DNA of 64,000 bases from Octopus vulgaris (Eukaryota), in assembly GCA_951406725.2 (NCBI GenBank), contig OX597824.1, positions 56,544,001 through 56,608,000 of the forward strand, written 5' to 3'. The translations under genes were made by a program, and so were the position numbers. Below, piece by piece: positions 14,071 to 24,341 of this stretch (position 1 is the stretch's first letter; each line of letters begins with the position of its first letter). The notes beneath the pieces are model-generated. The model searched no databases. It saw only the letters and a program-made list of their open reading frames with translations, and was not told where the DNA came from.

Positions 14071-14355
14071 TTTTCCTTGTACTTATTCTTATTTTCTTGT
14101 TGATAGTTTTCTCTGTGTTTTTTGGTTGGTGAATTGCTGCGGTGAGTTGTTATTGTTATTTGTTTAAAAAGAACTTTTATTGCATTTTTGGAAGCGGATT
14201 GTTTAAATTACACCCCTCCCCCCCCCATCCTGCAGGGGAATTATTGTTGAACTGTGTGGCTTGAAGCCAATTCAGTAAGGCGTAAGCCCAAAGTTTTGTG
14301 TTCGGCGTTTTGCCGCAAATTGCATTTTGTTATAAAAAAAAGAGAGAAGGGAAAC

Positions 14356-15506
14356 ATGGACTCACCATTAATTTCAAGCAACTCACCTGATTATGGATAT
14401 GCCTGTTTTTGTAACAGGTGAAAAGGAGGTATCACTGGCGGTGAGACGGAAAAAAGGAAACTCAGTTAAACACTGAGATAAATAATCTACAGAGATTTAT
14501 GTCAATGCTCAAAAAGGAGGAGACCGAGATAAAAGTAGCCCATCAGGAAGAAAGAACAGACCAAGTCAACAAGATTCTGTACAAATCATATAACATAAGC
14601 AAAAAAAGAATCTTCAAAACCGAGGAAAAAATAGTAGAGAAATGCCTCAGACCTATTTGGTCTGAGATCACATACATCAACCTAGGTAAAAGATTCGGAA
14701 CTGTTGAAGCCAGAGGAAGTAGCCAGGCAGTACTCCTTGGAGACCCTAAGAACGGAGGAAGTGGTTCTTCTCCCCGTATATATGAGAAGAAGAACATCAA
14801 AAGTAAAAATTAATAACATTCCACCGGAAGTCGATGCTACCTGTTTAGGGGCAGCTATCGTCATGGGCCCGGAGGAAAAAATAACGATTCTCCAGGCCTC
14901 AGAAGAAAAAGAAGAGAACTGGAAGAGATAATGCCTGACAATGTTAATACAAGCAGAAGTCCCAACCCTTGAGGAAATAGCAGAAATTATAAATGTCAGC
15001 AAAGAAAAATTAAAAGTTTTTGTAGAAGGAAGAAAACCAAGGTGCTTTAACTGCGGTTTAAAGGGCCACATAAGGTCGGAGTGCAAACCAAAAGAAAATC
15101 AAGTAGAAGAAATAGAAGAATTAGCAACTGAAACACCAACACCGAAAGAAAATACAACACTGATACCAACAGAAGAGAGCGAAGATAGCGACAGAAAGGA
15201 GGGGTGGTCGACTATGTTCAAAAAAAAAAAGAAGAAAAAAACTCAGACCGCCCCTACCAAATTGAACAAGAAAATGAGAATACATATATGGTCATCAAAG
15301 CATCAAATAACAGATTAATCAATCGGTTGGCAGCTATTTCATGTGCCAAACGTGTTGAAAAAACAACTTCTAACGACTTTCTCAATTACAGGATAGGTCG
15401 GAAGGATTACGGACGGATTAAGTCCGAATTCTTCCACGACATAGGCCCTGTCAGGATGGATTTTTCTCCCTACATTTATGACAGCCTACATCCAAATTCC
15501 CTATGA
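14356..15506 (+). pseudogene. Tx1-type ORF1 (Gag-like, CCHC), with stops and frameshifts
   Basis: Pieced from ORFs 14499..14813, 14704..14931, 14941..15318 and 15204..15506. Confidence 0.8.
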
Positions 15507-16198
15507 ACCCAAGAAAAGGAGAGAAAAAAAAGAACACCAGAACGAAGAAACCTCGAACCACTGATATAGAGATAAGTACTGTTGAACATTCATGCTGGTT
15601 GTTTAAATGTATGTGGCCTGGTGTCGTGTAATTTGGATGTTATTGTTGCTACAGAAACTCGGTTAAGGGGGCCAAGAGATCTGCTCCCACCGTTGGATGG
15701 CTACGAGAGTATTCCTCTCCAGGCTGTCCTTCTAGTGGAAGCGGGGTGTTGGTCCTGTTAAAAAAAAACGGGTTTCTGAGAAAAAGTCAATTTTTTCTGA
15801 TCCAGAATGGATTTGACGTTCAGCCGTGGTAAATTTATCAGACTGGTTGCAATTTATGCACCCACGACAACTGGGCAAAGTGAATATTTTCAGAATCTGG
15901 AGAAGTTTCTTGGTACATCACATCCTTTAGTTGTGCTAGGAGACTATCTACTAGGCACGTGTAGATTATGTTGGTTTGTGTACAGATAGAAGAAGTAAAT
16001 CCTTGCTTCCTGGAACTGCTAAACCGCTTTGAGCTTTGACGCTCCATTGTGGACAGGGTCAAATAGCGATGGATCTTCCACGTCATACCTAGATAGAGTG
16101 TTAATTAGAGAAGCAGATAGAAATATAGCTAGGTGCCCACAGTTTCACCCAGTCAGCTACAGTGATCATAAAATGGTCACCTGTAAGCTTGATATAGA

Positions 16199-16418
16199 TG
16201 TTACACATTCATATCTATGTGTTTACGTATGCCAAACTACATCTCCACTCTTGGCACTATTTTGTTAGTGAACAGTACAACTGTGTGTAAAGTATATAAT
16301 GTATCACTACGCTGAATGTAGAGTCCGTGTAACATGAGAAGTCAATAAACACGTTAAAACAATAACAATGGTTTTCATTTGGTTGTCTATCCCATTAGAA
16401 CCCAAACTACACATAACA
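16199..16418 (+). repeat. 5' LTR
   Basis: TGTTACAC...CATAACA with an internal AATAAA. Direct repeat of 19415-19634. Confidence 0.97.
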
Positions 16419-16431
16419 TAGTGGCAGCGGT
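16419..16431 (+). promoter_or_regulatory. Primer binding site, tRNA-Leu type
   Basis: TAGTGGCAGCGGT differs at one base from TGGTGGCAGCGGT, the complement of the tRNA-Leu(AAG/TAG) 3' end ...ACCGCTGCCACCA. Confidence 0.8.
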
Positions 16432-16542
16432 AAAAAATTAAACGGAAACTGTGCCTTTACAACAAATCAGAAACGCAACGAACCAGGAAATTAACAAACA
16501 AAACATCGCTTCGTCTTCGGACAACATACACGACTATCCAAG

Positions 16543-19247
16543 ATGGCGACCCCCGTCACCGTACAGATGAATCTACATCCGATTATGGATTGGGACTCCG
16601 ATGATATTTTGGAAGCATTTAAAAAGTTTAAACAGAAAACCCAACTAGCTTTCAAAAGTTTCCTGAAAGGCACAACTGATGATGAGAAGGTAAGCTATAT
16701 CCTTTTATGGTCAGGTAATAAAGGAATAGACCTATTCAATAGCTGGGATATGTCAGAATCGGACTGCAATAACCCAGACACACTTCTTGAGAAATTTGAA
16801 AGGCACCTAGAGCCCAGGTCGAACCATAGAATTCACAGATGCGAATTCCAGGGCCTGAAACAAGACCCACAAGAAACAATTGACAATTTCCTGTCAAGAC
16901 TGAAAAATGTTGCAAAGAAATGCAAATTCAAAGACAGGGAGGAGAGAATTGTAGACCAATTAATATGGGGGTGTACCCACAAAGAAGTACAAAAATCACT
17001 AATAGTTGGTAGAAGCAGTAGACACTGCAAGAGCATTCGAAGCCACTACCAAACAGATGGCCTCACTTAGCTTACAAACAAGCTCACTGGGTAGCAGTGT
17101 AGCTGTTGTATCCAGGAACAGGACACATACCCACAAGCAAAGAACATGCCAGTACTGTGGTACAGAGCATGAATTTAATAACCGGAAAAAATGTCCTGCA
17201 TTCGGTACACACTGCAAAACATGTGGAAAACTTAACCACTGGGAAAAAATGTGTAGGGTAACAAAATCCCAGAGATACAAGCCCCAATTTTCAAAGAGGA
17301 GCAGAAATAAAAGAAGAGATATACATGCACAACAACAGGAACAAAACACCTCAGAGGATGAATTCTTGGCAGTCGGCACAATAAATGTGCATGAGATGGG
17401 AAAGAACGACCGGAAGAAAGAAGATGAGGCATACACGACAATAAGAATACAGAAGAAGTCTGGCAGGAAACGAACAAACATAGACTTAAGGCTAAAGATT
17501 GACACTGGAGCCCAGAGTAATATCTTGCCTGTCAACCTCTACAAAAAGATGTTCCCAGAACACATAGCAAATGAGGATAAAGTCAAACAAGGAATCCTCA
17601 CACCAGGTGATGTGGTCCTCACTGCGTACAGAGGTACCAGGATTCCACAACTGGGGAAAACAACGATTAGGGGGACACACAAAGGGAAAACAATCGAGTG
17701 TACATTTTATGTCACAAGAACAGAAGGCCCAGCAATTCTTGGACTCGATACCTGCAGGAGGTTAAATATTGTGTCGGTCAATGCTGAAGTGAAAGCAGCT
17801 CCAAGCAGGATTGACAGTGATATGCCTATCAAAGACCGACCACCAATCACAAACAAACAGGAGATGGAAGGACTAAGCAGAAAGGTCCACCACATTGTAA
17901 ATGTGACAACCACAAAGCTAGTGGAAATCAAAGAGGAGACCAGCAAAGATGAAGAACTTCAGCTCCTTACTCAGATGGTGATTCAGGGGTGGCCAGAAAA
18001 GAGACATCAGGTGCAGCTCCTAATTCGTGAATATTGGGCCATCCATGATGATATATCAGTGGAGAATGGAATCCTAATGGCTGGATCCCGAATCATTATA
18101 CCCAAGTCAATGCAAAGGGAGATTCTTGACAAGATCCACCAAGGGCATCTAAGAATGGAAAAATGCAAGCTCCGAGCCAAGTCAGCAGTATATTGGGTAG
18201 GCATGTACAAAGACATAGAAAAGACAGTTTCTACATGCCGCATCTGCCAAAAGTACAGAAACACAACAAAAGGAGGAAATGATACATAGTGACATCCCAA
18301 GAAGGCCATGGCAAACTATTGGAGTAGATCTATTCACAGAGGGCCAAGAATGGTATTTAATAATGGCCTGCTACTACTCCAAATTTCCATTTGTGAGAAA
18401 AGTGAAAGACCTGATAGCCAAAACAATCACTACAGTGGCTCGAGGACTCCTAGCAGAGCAAAGAATACCAGAGCAGATCATATGTGACAATGGAACCCAG
18501 TTCACATCACAAGAATTCAAAAAGCTAGCCGATGAGTATGGGTTCAATATTACAACTTCATCTCCACACTACCCCAAAGGTCATGGGTTTATAGAAAGAC
18601 AGGTGCAGACAGTGAAGAGAACACTAGTCAAATGCCGAGAGACTAAGGAAGACCCACACATGGCACTTCTTTCCCTACGAGCGACACAACTGAGAGCTGA
18701 TATGAAATCCCCAGCAGAATTGCTGAATGGCAGGAAGTACAAAACTACCCTGCCAACTAAGATCCATCCAATTGACCAGGAAGAAATAAGGGCAAAGTTA
18801 GCAGCCACTCAAGAACAATCTCAGAGATATTACAACAAATATGCACAATATTTACCTGAGATACTTGGAGGACAACATGTGCATACTCAAGATCCCATAA
18901 CTAAAACATGGATCCCAGCAAAGGTTGTCAGTAGAGCTGAAACTCCAAGATCGTATATAATAGAAACGGAATCTGGTAGGCAGCTGAGACGCAACAGGGC
19001 CCACATCCGCCCAACACCAGAGCTGTCGAGGAAAACGTGTACAACACCTGCTGCATTGGTGACAACACCCACAGAATCATCACCCCAATGTGCCCCAACC
19101 ACCTATCAGCAGCCCAACAACACACCTCAGACACCCGTGCGAAGCACAAGATCCACCAGATGGAGAAATAACATTCTGCCACCGGTTCGAAAAAAAGTGA
19201 AAGACCTGTTAAAGAAAAAGTTAAAGAAAAAAAAGAAAAGAAAATGA
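16543..19247 (+). pseudogene. gag-protease-integrase polyprotein in three frameshifted pieces
   Basis: Gag (FERHLEP, QDPQETIDNFLSRLK), knuckles CQYCGTEH..C and CKTCGKLNHWEKMC, protease LKIDTGAQSNIL, integrase zinc finger HQGH..CRIC and DDE core (GVDLF, CDNGTQF, GFIERQV). Confidence 0.92.
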
Positions 19248-19414
19248 AAAGAGAAGTATCTAATTCAGCTAGACTACAAAGCAGAGGCAGAATAATCTCA
19301 CGACTTCTGCTGTAGGATTGCCACCTCAGGCTGACAATCCATATAGCAAGGGAGACTACTCATAGTTGTCTTCACTGCCATAAGACCCCTTTATTTTTTT
19401 TCAAGAAGAAGGGA

Positions 19415-19634
19415 TGTTACACATTCATATCTATGTGTTTACGTATGCCAAACTACATCTCCACTCTTGGCACTATTTTGTTAGTGAACAGTGCAACTGT
19501 GTGTAAAGTACATAATGTATCACTACGCTGAATGTAGAGTCCGTGTAACATGAGAAGTCAATAAACACGTTAAAACAATAACAATGGTTTTCATTTGGTT
19601 GTCTATCCCATTAGAACCCAAACTACACATAACA
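19415..19634 (+). repeat. 3' LTR
   Basis: Direct repeat of the 5' LTR, preceded by a polypurine tract. Confidence 0.97.
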
Positions 19635-21596
19635 ATAGATAAGCTACATAATAGAGGCTCCGGCTACTGGAAACATATGTCCCTTTTGGCGATCAGGGAG
19701 TACAGAGACTGGATTAAGTTGTTGATTCAGGGGCATTAACCGGTTCCATTATTTATAAGAAATGGTGGTATGCCCTCAAGCGAGCATATCTCCATCTTAT
19801 ACAGTACACTTTAGAGGGGTTTAATAGTGATTCTGGCAAGGACGGCGTACTGGTCCATTTAGACCAATCTAAGGCATTTGATAGGGTTGCCATCGCTACC
19901 TGGAGTCCGTTCTGGTGCAGTTCGGTCTGGGTCTTGGCTTCCTCAGGTGGATAATTCAGATTTATGACAATATTGACTCGGTAGTTCAGGTGAACGGCTT
20001 CTTATCGAGGCCGTTCAACATCAAACGCTCAATTCGTCAAGGGTATCCGCTCTCCCCGCTTTTGTATGCAATTGACCTTGAGCCATTACTGCGAAAATTG
20101 AGCAGCATCCCGAGACAACCAGGTTGTGGAAAGTCAGTTTCAGCTTACGCGGATGACATCAACATCATCGAAACTGAAATGGATCACCTACAGAGGGTAG
20201 GAAAGGCCATTAAGGTTTACGAGATGATGGCAGGAGCAAAAGTTAATCGAGAAAAGTCAGTCGGCTTGCAGCTCGGCACCTGAAGAGCGTCGTGGGACAT
20301 TGGACAGAGGGTCCAATTAAAGTTGCTAGGAGTTTAGTTTGGACCAGACCTACAAATAGAGAACTGGGCCGATGTATCGAGCAGGGTGACCCACATAATC
20401 AAGACCTGGTCTTGGCGGTGGCTATCCTTGAAACGGAGTGCGGAGGTAGCCAATGTGCTTACCGCATCGGTTATCACCTACCGCCTAGCCGTCGTTCCTT
20501 GCCATGATTCATGGTTGATCAAGCTGGAAAGACAGCTTTTCCACTCCTTGTAGAAGGGCTTGAAACTACTTGTGAGCTAGGGATGACTTCGCTATTGATG
20601 AGCAGACATGCGCTGAGGTTGAGACATCTGTGGCCCTACCTGGATGGTGAATGGGTGTGGTCTCCACTGGCGAAGCGGATGTTTCTAGTTGGTTCTATCA
20701 CTAGTTGGTTCTATCGAAGTTGGGTAAATGGTTTACGGAGTGTCGCAAGGCTCTCCTGCTATTCCGTTGCTCGGGCAATGCCACCGGTGGAGGTTCCACC
20801 GCATTCTTTTACAGAGGGCTTGTAGAGGTGGAATGTGACGTAACCTTAGGGGAAGCCCTAGATCTCAACGATAATCAGTTGGCCAGTCTGTTCTGATGTA
20901 CATTCGGGTCGAAAACCCTGGACAACTTTCAGAAGTCTCTGGCATGGCAGAGGAGCCTTACCTGTTCGGGACAAGCTCACCAGGCATAGAGGCCACGGCC
21001 CTTCGACCATTCCAAGATGTGAGCAGGATAGAGAAACCGTCCCGCACGCTATTGTTCAGTGTTTGGAGGTGTCAGACATGTGTGTTTATGCTGAACAACT
21101 GTTGTCAAGTGCAGGAAGAGTACAGCTATTGACTGAGTCAATAGTAAGAATTGACCTGCCTCATTTCCTTTCGAAAGCAGGTTAGAATTGTTTTCTCATT
21201 TGTTGTAGCAATTGCGAAAGAGGTGATTTGGAAGATGAGGCTGAAAGGATTAAAGTCTGACACTTTCATCTCTGGCTCTTGAATTGGAAGATAGGGCTAG
21301 AGAAAAAAATGCCTGACTTTGAAAATGTTTGAAAATCAATGGAAGAATGTAGCATGTATGTTGCGCGTGCATGTAACCTCATGAATGCGACGCAGGACGT
21401 ATCTCAGGAATCAGTGGCGAGGCGGGTCTCAAGGGGTACGAAATGAACCTGCCTCCCCACTCCATCCGTAATGTCTTCTGGTCTATCCTATCATTCGATT
21501 TATTTATCTTCTATTTTGTGAATTTTCTTCCATCTGACCCCACTCAGATTGTGTTATCCTTTTCTGTGTGGGAAATAAAAAATCAACTTATTCTTA

Positions 21597-24341
21597 GTGC
21601 AAGTTTCCTGTTGTCGGTACTGGTGATAGTTTTCTCTGTGTTTTGTTTGGTTGATGAATTGCTGCGGTGAGTTGTTATTGTTATTTGTTAAAAAAGAACT
21701 GTTATTGGTTTTTTGGAAGCGGATTGTTTCAATTCCACCTTGCGGGGGAATTATTGTCGAACTGTGTGGCTTTAAGCCAATTCTGTAGGGTGTAAGCCCA
21801 AATTTTTGTGTTCTGCATTTTGCCGAAATTGTATTCTATATATATTTATATATATATAAAGCAACATCATGGAGTCGCCACTGAGTTCAATGTACTCCAT
21901 AGATAATTCAATATTGGATATGCCTGTTTCTGTAACAGGCGTAGAAGAGAAAATACCAGCAGTGTCATAAAAAAAAAGTTAAACTTGTAGAGGCAGCAGG
22001 AAAGAAGGAAAGAGAAATCAATACTGAAATGAAAAATTGGAAAAAGTTAACGTTAAAAAAGGAGGGGATGGAAATACAAGTAGCCCCTCCAACAGAAGCA
22101 GTAGTAGAAGTAAACAAGAAAAGAATTATTTATAAAACCTACATCATGGAAAAAAAGCAAATCGATTAAATGGAAGAAAAATTAGTGGAAAAATGCCTAA
22201 AGCCTATATAGGCAGATATTACCTACATGACAAGAGGAAAACGGTTTCGAACAGTTGAAGTGAGATTCACATCAGAGGAGATGGCCAGGCGGCATTTCTC
22301 TGAAACTCTGAGAACTGAAGCGGTGGTTCTTCCCATATATATAGGAAGAAGAAAATCGAAAGTAAAAATCACTAATATTCCTCCAAGCTGCTTGGCTTGT
22401 GGCAGCCATAATAATAAACCAAGAGGAAGAAATCTCCATTCTCCAGGCATCAGTGGTGAGAGAAGTGAACTGGAAGGGACAATGCCTAAACATGTTGATT
22501 CAGGCAGAAGTTCCCACGCTGGAAGAAATTCCAGAAATAATAAATTTCGGAGAAGAGAGGCTGATTGTCTTCGTAGAAGGCAGGAGGCTAAGATGTTTCA
22601 ACTGCAGGCGAAATATAAGGTCCGAATGCCAACCCCAAAAAACAAAAGTGCAAGAAGAAAAGGAAGGAGAAAAAGCAGTGATTGTGGAAGTGTCATCTAC
22701 ATCAACAGAGACAACACTACTACCAGCAAAACCAGTAGAAAATTGTGAAGATAAAGAAAAAGAGGACTGTTTTTAAAAAAAAAGGAGAAAACTGAGACCA
22801 CACCTACCAAACTGAAAATAAGTGAGAAAAATGGAAAAGTAAAAGACTAATTATATGGCCATCAAGGCAACAAATAGTAGACTAATCAACCGTTTGTCAG
22901 CTATTTCATCTGCTAAACGGGTGGAAAACAAATCATCGAAAGACTTTCTCATTTACAGGATAGGCCGGAAGGATTACGGACGGATTAAGTTCGAATTTTT
23001 CCACGATGCTTAGGATGGATTTTCTACCCTATGAGTTGTATAAGAGTATGCCAGACTTGTTCAGGCACCTGCTGGCGAAGGTCTATGCAGAACCGGTTTA
23101 TTTCCAGATCTGTTTGCCGGGGAGTGGTGACGCTTGTCAGAAGGGCCCCGGACAAGGTGTATTCCGTTAATTTTCAGCCCAGCACTCTGCTAAACACAGA
23201 GTTGAAGATTTTTAGCCAAAGTGTTATCGAAAATATTGGCGCGTGTAGCGGATAGTCTGATCGGGGGGCACAGACATGTGCCGTTCCCGGCAGAACCATC
23301 CAGGATAATCTCCATCTTATACAGTACACTTTAGCGGGGTTTAATAGGGATTCTGGCAAGGGTGGGGCACTGGTCCATTTAGATCAATCTAAGGCATTTG
23401 ATAGGGTTGACCATTGCTACCTGGTGTCCGTTCTGGCGCAGTTCGACTTCCTCAGGTGGATAATTCAGATTTATGACAATATCGACTCGGTAGTTTGGGT
23501 AAACGGCTTCTTATCGAGGCCGTTCAACATCAAATGCTGGGTTCGTCAAGGATGTCCGCTCACCCCACTTTTCTACGTAATGGTTCTTGAGCCATTACTG
23601 TGAAGATTGAGCAGCATCCCGAGACAGCCAGGTTGTGGAAAGTCGGTTTCAGGTTACGCGGATGACATCAACATCATCATAACCAAAATGGATCACCTAC
23701 AATCTTAGGTAGGAAAGGGCATAAAAGTTAACGAGATGGAGATAGGAGCAAAAGTTAATTGAGAAAAGTCAGTTGGCTTGCAGCTCGGCACCTGGAGAGG
23801 CAAGTCGATGCCACCAGACAGTGTCATAGGACATTGGACGGAGGGTCCGATTAAATTGCTAGGAGTTTAGTTTGGACCAGACCTACAAATAGAGAACTGT
23901 GCCGAGGAATCAAGGCAACAAATAGTCTTGGCGGTGGCTATCCCTGAAAGGAAGAGCGGAGGTAGCCAATGTGTTTATCGCATTGGTTATCACCTACTGC
24001 CTAACCATCGTTCCTTGCCCTGATTCGTGGTTGATCAAGTTGGAAAGACAGCTCTTCCACTTTTTGTGGAAGGGCTTGAAAGCGCTTGTGAGACGCTCTA
24101 TTTGCTGCCACAACCGTTAAAGGGTGGGCTAGGGATGACTTCTCTATTGATATGCAGACGTGCGCTGAGGTTGAGGCATCTATGGCTCTACCTGGATGGT
24201 GAATAGGTGTGGTCTCCACTGGTGAAACGGATGTTTCCCAAGTTTTGGTGGACGGGAATCTTGGTTCTGTTGAAGGCTGAAGTTGGGTACATGGTTTACG
24301 GAGTGTTGCAAGGCTCTCCTGCTATTTTGTCGCTCGGGCAA
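21597..24341 (+). mobile_element. Tx1/L1-group LINE copy B, internally deleted and 3'-truncated
   Basis: 5' UTR matches copy A (tgatagttttctctgtg..gaattgctgcggtgagttgttattg). ORF1 remnant 21870-23030 runs directly into the RT region (LLNTELKI, DQSKAFDRV, RQGCPL, YADDI), so the endonuclease part is missing. Confidence 0.88.

What the first reader, a model, noticed from the sequence alone, without database searches (positions are those of the whole stretch)
16199..19634. Young LTR retrotransposon encoding Gag-protease-integrase but no reverse transcriptase/RNase H
Seen: all cis signals are present (LTRs with 2 mismatches in 220 bp, TSD, PBS, PPT). The protease domain reads in frame into the pre-integrase region at ..PPITNKQEMEGLSRKVHH.. 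(about 17860) with no RT (YxDD) or RNase H between them, and the integrase HHCC and DDE residues are retained. Established: Gypsy pol order is PR-RT-RH-IN. Inference: this may be a non-autonomous lineage that supplies its own capsid, protease and integrase and borrows RT from a helper. Two frameshifts (about 17005 and 18270) mean this copy is not fully coding, and a one-off post-insertion deletion cannot be excluded here.
Basis: partly seen in the sequence, partly recalled or inferred. Interest (0 to 1): 0.72.

Follow-up and report, generated by a model that had tools for sequence, protein, structure and literature searches.

The report
RT-less retrotransposon lineage with editing scar
This is one of about 30 copies of an octopus jumping gene that lost its reverse transcriptase in one clean in-frame deletion yet kept spreading, likely by riding and recombining with complete relatives, and its protease gene carries a run of A-to-G changes that likely records RNA editing copied back into DNA.

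Summary
Confirmed, and not a one-off. The element (LTRs 218/220 identical, TSD ATAGA) lacks 1,353 nt (451 codons: all of RT and RNase H) present in same-LTR relatives. The junction occurs at 31 loci (29 after removing duplicates; 24 with perfect 5-bp TSDs); 81 places match the RT-bearing junction. Trees and block-wise haplotypes show repeated recombination with RT-bearing copies. All five large rearrangements inherited only within the RT-less lineage keep the frame, but amino-acid selection is weak, and 18 of 29 copies, the youngest, also lost the integrase HHCC finger. So 'borrows RT' is supported; 'supplies its own integrase' is not. Best reading: a dependent lineage that works like mouse IAP 1-delta-1, where translating the fusion likely helps in cis. 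The RT-less protease region carries 17 A>G and 0 T>C lineage-typical changes in 280 nt, likely an inherited ADAR footprint (neighbour preference not significant). Similar in-frame RT-less ORFs recur in distant Gypsy relatives (proteins only). The scan noted an RT-less fungal copy and ADAR-like scars on other octopus elements before. New variant of a known kind.

The parts
16194..16198 (+). 5-bp target-site duplication (ATAGA), left copy
16199..16418 (+). 5' LTR, 220 bp, TG...CA
   Evidence: 2 mismatches to the 3' LTR
16419..16431 (+). Primer-binding site for tRNA-Leu(AAG); one mismatch (TAG for TGG) in this copy
16543..17300 (+). gag with Cys/His knuckle region; broken by a 17-nt deletion at about 17004 (end approximate)
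   Evidence: (PF03732 E 2e-4, below cut-off)
17470..17857 (+). Aspartic protease region, DTG at 17501 (start approximate)
   Evidence: motif only, no Pfam hit
17614..17777 (+). Part of the lineage-typical A>G tract kept in this copy (10 of 17 sites G; the 7 upstream sites are RT-bearing type, i.e. a crossover); coordinates approximate
17855..17858 (+). Deletion junction: 1,353 nt (451 codons, RT plus RNase H) missing at an AAA microhomology, frame kept
17858..19247 (+). Integrase with HHCC (18137-18247) and D-D-E (about 18327, 18486, 18594); broken by a 2-nt deletion at about 18262; 13-nt insertion near 19193
19403..19414 (+). Polypurine tract
19415..19634 (+). 3' LTR
19635..19639 (+). Target-site duplication (ATAGA), right copy; the element interrupts a decayed LINE between endonuclease-like and RT-like fragments
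   Evidence: motifs recognised from memory; the two short flanking frames gave no Pfam hit

Best explanation
This is a decayed copy of an amplified Gypsy-type LTR lineage that lost RT and RNase H in one in-frame deletion and likely spreads by being packaged together with, and recombining with, RT-bearing RNAs of the same family. Shown: shared junction at 29 independent loci, partners with the same LTR and PBS, mosaic haplotypes, open frames in several copies. Inferred: the deletion arose once by an RT template jump; the helper provides RT-RNase H and probably integrase; the RT-less RNA is likely translated into a Gag-protease-integrase fusion, and what is selected is mainly the open frame (Gag made in cis, or RNA stability), not integrase activity. 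Inferred: an early RT-less RNA was likely A-to-I edited over about 270 nt of the protease region before reverse transcription, and the recoded tract has been inherited and eroded by crossovers since.
For: 31 loci with the junction: one search gave 31 matches (one an internal duplicate in L038) and L059 was found; 29 remain after removing 2 near-identical duplicates. 24 of 29 have perfect 5-bp TSDs in different flanks, 1 has a one-base mismatch, 4 lack an end. 81 matches to the RT-bearing RNase H/integrase junction. RT-bearing copies hit RVT_1 and RT_RNaseH; one has an uninterrupted 1,315-codon frame. RT-less copies with uninterrupted frames: L032 891, L037 894, L046 781, L056 770 codons. Recombination: RT-less and RT-bearing copies interleave in gag, integrase and LTR trees (at least 4 label changes forced by starred branches in gag); L031 is 0.7-3.4% from RT-bearing copies over gag-protease but 7% in the window next to the junction; the A>G tract is lost in contiguous blocks. 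Single origin: six sites 81-101 nt left of the junction carry the RT-less allele in 23-26 of 28 RT-less and 0-1 of 43 RT-bearing copies. Frame: the five large changes private to the lineage and seen in 3 or more copies (deletions of 1353, 321, 282, 30; duplication of 36) are all in frame (p=0.004 against one in three, p=0.04 against 6 of 14 single-copy indels of 7 nt or more tallied by hand), while single-copy indels are 29 shifting to 5 in frame. HHCC-less classes are younger (median LTR divergence A 2.9%, B 1.9%, C 0.9%; A vs C p=0.005). A>G tract: 17 of 27 lineage-typical sites, 0 T>C (p=7e-4), five AA>GG doublets, A in 83 of 85 positions of five old RT-bearing copies (2 G; 3 positions not covered are counted out of L064). 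Precedent: IAP 1-delta-1 (PMC6466679, PMC7411935, passages).
Against: Amino-acid constraint on RT-less-private variants is weak and not significant in any single domain. A TGG>TGA stop at integrase N-terminal codon 1007 is shared by L033, L034, L035 and one RT-bearing copy, and 1-nt shifts are shared by pairs or trios of RT-less copies, so an open frame is not strictly required, or these are recurrent. Four class C copies share a shift in the last 50 codons and two share a stop or 16-nt deletion in the integrase C-terminal part. Microhomology deletions in coding DNA may be biased to in-frame by themselves (own knowledge, not tested). L035 and L037 look RT-bearing up to 80 nt from the junction, so a second origin of the same deletion is not excluded for them. 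ADAR neighbour preferences are not significant (5' G depletion p=0.38, 3' G enrichment p=0.21), no single copy of 103 shows its own A>G cluster, no long inverted repeat covers the tract, and family-wide A>G excess in RT-less private variants is only p=0.07. No protein, particle or certain RNA evidence was obtained.
Confidence: 0.65

Rival explanations
1. Cooperative partner: the RT-less lineage makes working capsid, protease and integrase and borrows only RT.
For: Class A keeps HHCC and DDE in most copies; D-D-E intact in 24 of 29 RT-less copies (2 changed, 3 not covered) and DTG in 28 of 28 covered. The deletion spares protease and integrase. Pooled N/S ratio 0.49, p=0.02 at the two-copy threshold; integrase core p=0.07. 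Distant relatives P0218 and P0230 show the same Gag-side protease to HHCC-integrase join.
Against: 18 of 29 copies lost HHCC in whole or part by independent deletions and are the youngest; a stop in the integrase N-terminal part is shared by 3 of 11 class A copies; class A alone has too few private shared variants to show selection (5 N, 4 S; p=0.24). The copies are too young for retained catalytic residues to mean much.
Confidence: 0.2
2. Pure RNA parasite: only LTRs, PBS, PPT and a packaging signal matter; the reading frame is a passive remnant and in-frame junctions are chance or a by-product of microhomology.
For: N/S ratio 0.76, p=0.53 for variants in 3 or more copies against 0.34, p=3e-14 in RT-bearing copies; some stops and 1-nt shifts are shared; many of the protease changes are non-synonymous.
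Against: 5 of 5 inherited large rearrangements are in frame against 29 of 34 single-copy indels out of frame; no stop among 28 non-synonymous private variants in 3 or more copies (12 of 187 among singles; not significant); no RT-less sub-lineage has lost gag or protease among 29 loci (one single copy, L039, has an in-frame gag deletion).
Confidence: 0.13
3. One-off or recurrent post-insertion deletion, or an assembly collapse.
For: An imperfect 12-nt homology surrounds the breakpoints; two copies cannot be told from a second deletion event.
Against: Same base-exact junction at 31 loci on 14 contigs with their own TSDs; nested later deletions shared by 5 and 12 copies; linked private haplotype; the joined form appears in contigs of independent runs labelled as four organisms, though with only 19-30 letters on the shorter side, under the tool's 31-letter bridging mark.
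Confidence: 0.02

Closest known systems
Mouse IAP 1-delta-1 subtype (PMC6466679 and PMC7411935, passages read; the primary paper was not held)
   Same: Internal deletion that leaves one open gag-pol fusion frame; needs full-length partners in trans; amplified; the fusion protein is reported to help in cis.
   Different: IAP is a betaretrovirus-like ERV whose 1.9-kb deletion removes parts of gag and pol; here a Gypsy-type element keeps whole gag and protease and loses exactly RT-RNase H, then integrase HHCC in later steps. The cis effect is not tested here.
Plant semi-autonomous LTR elements: TR-GAG, RLG_Sabrina/WHAM, RLG_Quinta, and sugar-beet families with partial POL domains (PMC9744471 and bioRxiv 10.64898/2026.03.01.708851, passages read)
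   Same: Keep Gag (and protease), lack RT, co-evolve and exchange sequence with an autonomous partner.
   Different: Sabrina/WHAM and TR-GAG lack integrase too; the sugar-beet families with INT remnants are described as partly decayed. Here the integrase core stays in one open frame and the partner is 85-97% identical.
Bovine ERVK[2-1-LTR] competent/defective pair (PMC10924933, passages read)
   Same: Pervasive recombination between competent and defective RNAs read as co-packaging.
   Different: Defective bovine copies have no intact ORFs and a swapped central segment.
Marine Ty3/Gypsy elements named 'K02A2.6-like' (sea urchin P0003/P0132, amphioxus P0004, Octopus sinensis P0005)
   Same: The RT-bearing partner is 65-76% identical over the polyprotein to these (89% to the O. 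sinensis piece).
   Different: They carry RT and RNase H. Placement in the Mag lineage is recalled from features (single frame, tRNA-Leu PBS), not tested.
APOBEC-edited LTR elements of vertebrates (PMC4866542, passages read)
   Same: A clustered one-strand mutation written into a retroelement during replication.
   Different: G>A by DNA editing, reported absent from 19 invertebrate genomes; here A>G on the sense strand, inherited by a whole lineage.

Membership tests
Ty3/Gypsy LTR retrotransposon (family as a whole) | Two LTRs TG...CA, 4-6 bp TSD, PBS, PPT | tested here: met
Ty3/Gypsy LTR retrotransposon (family as a whole) | pol order protease-RT-RNase H-integrase | tested here: met
   In RT-bearing copies: DTG 325, RVT_1 522-678, RNase H 742-868, H2C2 975-1029, rve 1059-1134. 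Not met by the window copy itself, which lacks RT-RNase H.
Ty3/Gypsy LTR retrotransposon (family as a whole) | RT phylogeny with named Gypsy clades (Mag A/B/C, MolGy) | not tested
   No named reference sequences were available from the tools; Pfam families and database names point to Gypsy.
Non-autonomous LTR derivative mobilised in trans | Several independent insertions share the same defect | tested here: met
   29 non-duplicate loci, 24 perfect TSDs
Non-autonomous LTR derivative mobilised in trans | Autonomous partner with matching LTR ends and PBS, active at the same time | tested here: met
   Same LTR and PBS; LTR divergence 0-5% in RT-less and 0-14.5% in RT-bearing copies
Non-autonomous LTR derivative mobilised in trans | Mobilisation by the partner's RT shown directly | not testable with these tools
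   Inferred from recombinant haplotypes
TR-GAG / Gag-protease-only elements | Gag (and protease) only, no integrase | tested here: not met
   rve is present in all three RT-less classes
IAP 1-delta-1-like cis-assisted fusion element (works-like claim) | Deletion keeps one open fusion frame | tested here: met
IAP 1-delta-1-like cis-assisted fusion element (works-like claim) | Translation of the fusion raises mobility in cis | not testable with these tools
   Only indirect: frame conservation p=0.004-0.04; point-substitution test inconclusive
ADAR hyper-edited retrocopy | Clustered sense-strand A>G without T>C, A ancestral | tested here: met
   17 A>G, 0 T>C in 280 nt; old RT-bearing copies and O. 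sinensis proteins have the A state
ADAR hyper-edited retrocopy | 5' G depletion and 3' G enrichment; a double-stranded partner | tested here: inconclusive
   p=0.38 and 0.21 with 17 sites; no long inverted repeat inside the element

The most novel reading that the evidence does not exclude
In-frame RT-less Gag-protease-integrase derivatives are a recurring, translated partner class of marine Gypsy elements, and in this octopus lineage ADAR recoded the protease once on RNA, RT fixed the edits in DNA, and the recoded enzyme has been propagated through about 30 insertions: RNA editing as a heritable mutagen that founded a retrotransposon lineage.
Probability: 0.3. Interest if true: 0.72.

Novelty: new variant of a known kind. 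Interest (0 to 1): 0.5.

Why it matters
It gives a dated, stepwise record of how an autonomous LTR element turns into a dependent one (RT-RNase H lost, then integrase HHCC lost by at least three separate in-frame deletions) while the frame is kept, which bears on whether translation in cis is a general need of parasitic LTR RNAs beyond mouse IAP. The A>G tract is a natural marker for template switching between co-packaged RNAs and, if ADAR made it, a case of cephalopod RNA editing entering the germ-line DNA. RT-based annotation would miss or miscount such lineages: here 31 against 81 junction matches.

Tried and rejected
Splicing as the source of the deletion: no GT at the left end under any reading of the microhomology. 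A YxDD search missed the partner's RT because its motif is IADD. A family-wide A>G excess and single-copy hypermutation clusters: not found. Internal hairpin over the tract: none. Expression: no RNA holder listed as such; three runs guessed to be RNA gave contigs with both RT-bearing and RT-less ends and the class C join, but their kind is a guess and contigs cannot show level, so not used as evidence. DNA for the convergent protein P0108: the metagenome scan returned only 31-38% relatives, 9 loci; of the two inspected, one was RT-bearing and one an unrelated arrangement. 19 of 20 loci fetched by LTR match alone were LTRs without internal sequence, most with TSDs. The '-1 at codon 893' row is an alignment artefact across the junction and was ignored. 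Papers: ten full-text searches listed nothing that describes this family or an RT-less Gag-protease-integrase Gypsy lineage in an animal; of the listings only the six papers cited plus PMC6238403 and PMC10089650 were opened, as passages; none was read whole, no supplements were opened, and Repbase was not available, so prior description is not excluded. Look-up of earlier scan notes by sequence found nothing.

Full report
Observation. The element spans 16199-19634 with 220-bp LTRs differing at two positions, TSD ATAGA and a purine tract before the 3' LTR. The PBS matches tRNA-Leu(AAG): a pattern made from it matched 61 places, and ARAGORN called tRNA-Leu(AAG) in 2 of 3 loci tested; this copy has TAG for TGG. 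Three frames carry gag, protease plus integrase N-terminus, and integrase core; Pfam finds no RT or RNase H. This copy is broken by a 17-nt and a 2-nt deletion. It sits in a decayed LINE, judged from recalled motifs. The host appears to be Octopus vulgaris, from the name of a database protein 100% identical to locus L032 over the matched part.

The missing part and the partner. A 351-base query across the junction returned 41 matches, some whole and some split. Split ones proved to be 4.6-4.8 kb elements with the same LTR and PBS and an extra segment, typically 1,353 nt, which holds RVT_1 (motif IADD) and RNase H. The deletion joins at AAA inside an imperfect 12-nt homology and keeps the frame; an RT template jump is inferred. 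Among the RT-bearing copies with two LTRs examined, one has an uninterrupted 1,315-codon frame and LTRs 1 of 216 apart; the copies fetched later were not checked for open frames.

A lineage, not an accident. With two mismatches allowed the RT-less junction matches 31 places and the RT-bearing RNase H/integrase junction 81; many of the 81 cluster on two contigs and may be segmental duplicates. I fetched every RT-less locus and 74 non-duplicate loci labelled RT-bearing, some of them fragments. After dropping two near-identical duplicates, 29 RT-less loci remain; 24 have perfect 5-bp TSDs in different flanks. Uninterrupted RT-less frames exist (891, 894, 781, 770 codons). Contigs of independent runs labelled organisms A, B, D and C show the joined form, with 19-30 letters on the shorter side, short of the tool's bridging mark, so this is supporting only.

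Three nested classes. Class A (11 loci, including the window) lacks RT-RNase H only. Class B (6) also lacks 321 nt (5 copies) or 333 nt (1), removing the whole HHCC finger. Class C (12) lacks 282 nt, removing the two histidines, with a further 30-nt deletion and 36-nt duplications in most. All of these keep the frame. Median LTR divergence is 2.9% (A, n=7), 1.9% (B, n=5), 0.9% (C, n=11), 2.8% (RT-bearing, n=35); A versus C p=0.005. The lineage has thus moved toward less integrase with time.

Origin and recombination. In trees of gag, integrase core and LTR, RT-less and RT-bearing copies interleave, less so in protease (four duplicates and copies covering under 80% of a region were left out). 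Near the junction they separate: six sites carry one allele in 23-26 of 28 RT-less and 0-1 of 43 RT-bearing copies. L031 resembles RT-bearing copies except next to the junction, and class C shares 3' deletions with two young RT-bearing copies. This fits one origin followed by repeated template switching between co-packaged RNAs (inferred). L035 and L037 could be double crossovers or a second deletion.

What is selected. Comparing variants shared only among RT-less copies with single-copy variants, N/S is 41/23 against 187/51 (ratio 0.49, p=0.02) for two or more copies, but 28/10 (0.76, p=0.53) for three or more; RT-bearing copies give 0.52 and 0.34 (p=3e-14) (an earlier run with fewer RT-bearing copies gave 0.58, p=0.03). 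No single domain is significant. The frame signal is clearer: 5 of 5 inherited large rearrangements in frame (p=0.004 against one in three; p=0.04 against single-copy indels of 7 nt or more), single-copy indels 29 shifting to 5 in frame. Against it: a stop shared by three class A copies and one RT-bearing copy, shared 1-nt shifts mostly at homopolymers, and inherited breaks in the last part of integrase in class C. I conclude that integrase activity in cis is unlikely to be needed and that an open frame through gag-protease is likely favoured, either for Gag made in cis or for RNA stability; these two cannot be told apart here.

The A>G tract. Of 27 lineage-typical sites in 280 nt of the protease region, 17 are A>G and none T>C (p=7e-4), against 5 of 26 outside and 96 of 559 among inherited RT-bearing variants (p=4e-7); five are AA>GG doublets. 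Old RT-bearing copies have A, and O. sinensis proteins have the RT-bearing residues at the end of the tract. The changes are of the K>R, N>D, N>S, I>V kind. The window copy holds the last 10 of 17. ADAR editing of the RNA before reverse transcription is the likely source, since coleoids edit heavily (own knowledge), but neighbour preferences are not significant, no double-stranded partner was found, and RT error under nucleotide imbalance is an alternative. I found the tract before reading the scan's notes on ADAR-like scars in other elements of this genome; those notes are unchecked and are not independent support.

Convergence. Among 372 fetched proteins, 296 had both protease and integrase core, and 21 had them unusually close; several are gene-model artefacts or multi-element fusions (P0009 is a spliced call of L032). 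Two sets look like real parallels: P0108, P0114 and P0119 (813 aa, 98.5-99.3% identical, no RT, RNase H or HHCC; RT-bearing partner P0022 99% identical over gag-protease) and P0218 with P0230 (same join, HHCC kept). Their DNA could not be fetched, so LTRs and independence are unverified.

Comparison. It works like mouse IAP 1-delta-1 (PMC6466679, PMC7411935; passages) and parallels plant semi-autonomous families (PMC9744471; bioRxiv 10.64898/2026.03.01.708851; passages), but is not a TR-GAG, since the integrase core is kept. Ten searches did not list a description of this family; the library is partial and Repbase was not available.

Verdict. Real, amplified, dependent LTR lineage; a new variant of a known kind, with a well-resolved decay series and a likely editing footprint. 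Interest 0.5.

Noticed in passing
P0002/P0132 (sea urchin), P0001/P0120 (cluster with a skate member) against L060: The RT-bearing partner is 70-76% identical in protein to elements named from sea urchin and clustered with a skate protein, high for such distant hosts; possible horizontal transfer among marine animals.
   Followed up: no
P0108, P0114, P0119 (partner P0022); P0218, P0230; P0200, P0238, P0284, P0287, P0363, P0364: Distant Gypsy proteins with protease joined in frame to integrase and no RT-RNase H, with or without HHCC; possible convergent lineages or gene-call artefacts.
   Followed up: partly
window 17913 onward, runs X4, X14 and X9: Contigs of other runs leave the element shortly after the junction and continue with letters resembling the 3' tail, suggesting a further class that has lost almost all of integrase; not seen among the G000 loci fetched.
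   Followed up: no
L038:3761-3996: One RT-less copy holds an inverted duplication of about 237 nt around the junction, which would form a long hairpin.
   Followed up: no
L078-L097: 19 of 20 best LTR-only matches are lone LTRs, most with 5-bp TSDs, so the family has inserted far more often than the internal-sequence counts show (422 first-look candidates).
   Followed up: partly
window 42575-47743 (+): Uninterrupted 1,722-codon frame with Helitron Rep/helicase-like motifs (recalled).
   Followed up: no
window 38588-39740 (-): Fragments of a different Gypsy-like element (RNase H- and integrase-like motifs).
   Followed up: no
window 14107-14455 and 21632-21976: Direct repeats 73-90% identical, 7.5 kb apart, flanking the LINE that hosts the element; probably ends of tandem LINE copies.
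   Followed up: no
G000:C14:40775670-40863468: A dense cluster of 34 matches to the tRNA-Leu 3' end pattern within about 90 kb.
   Followed up: no
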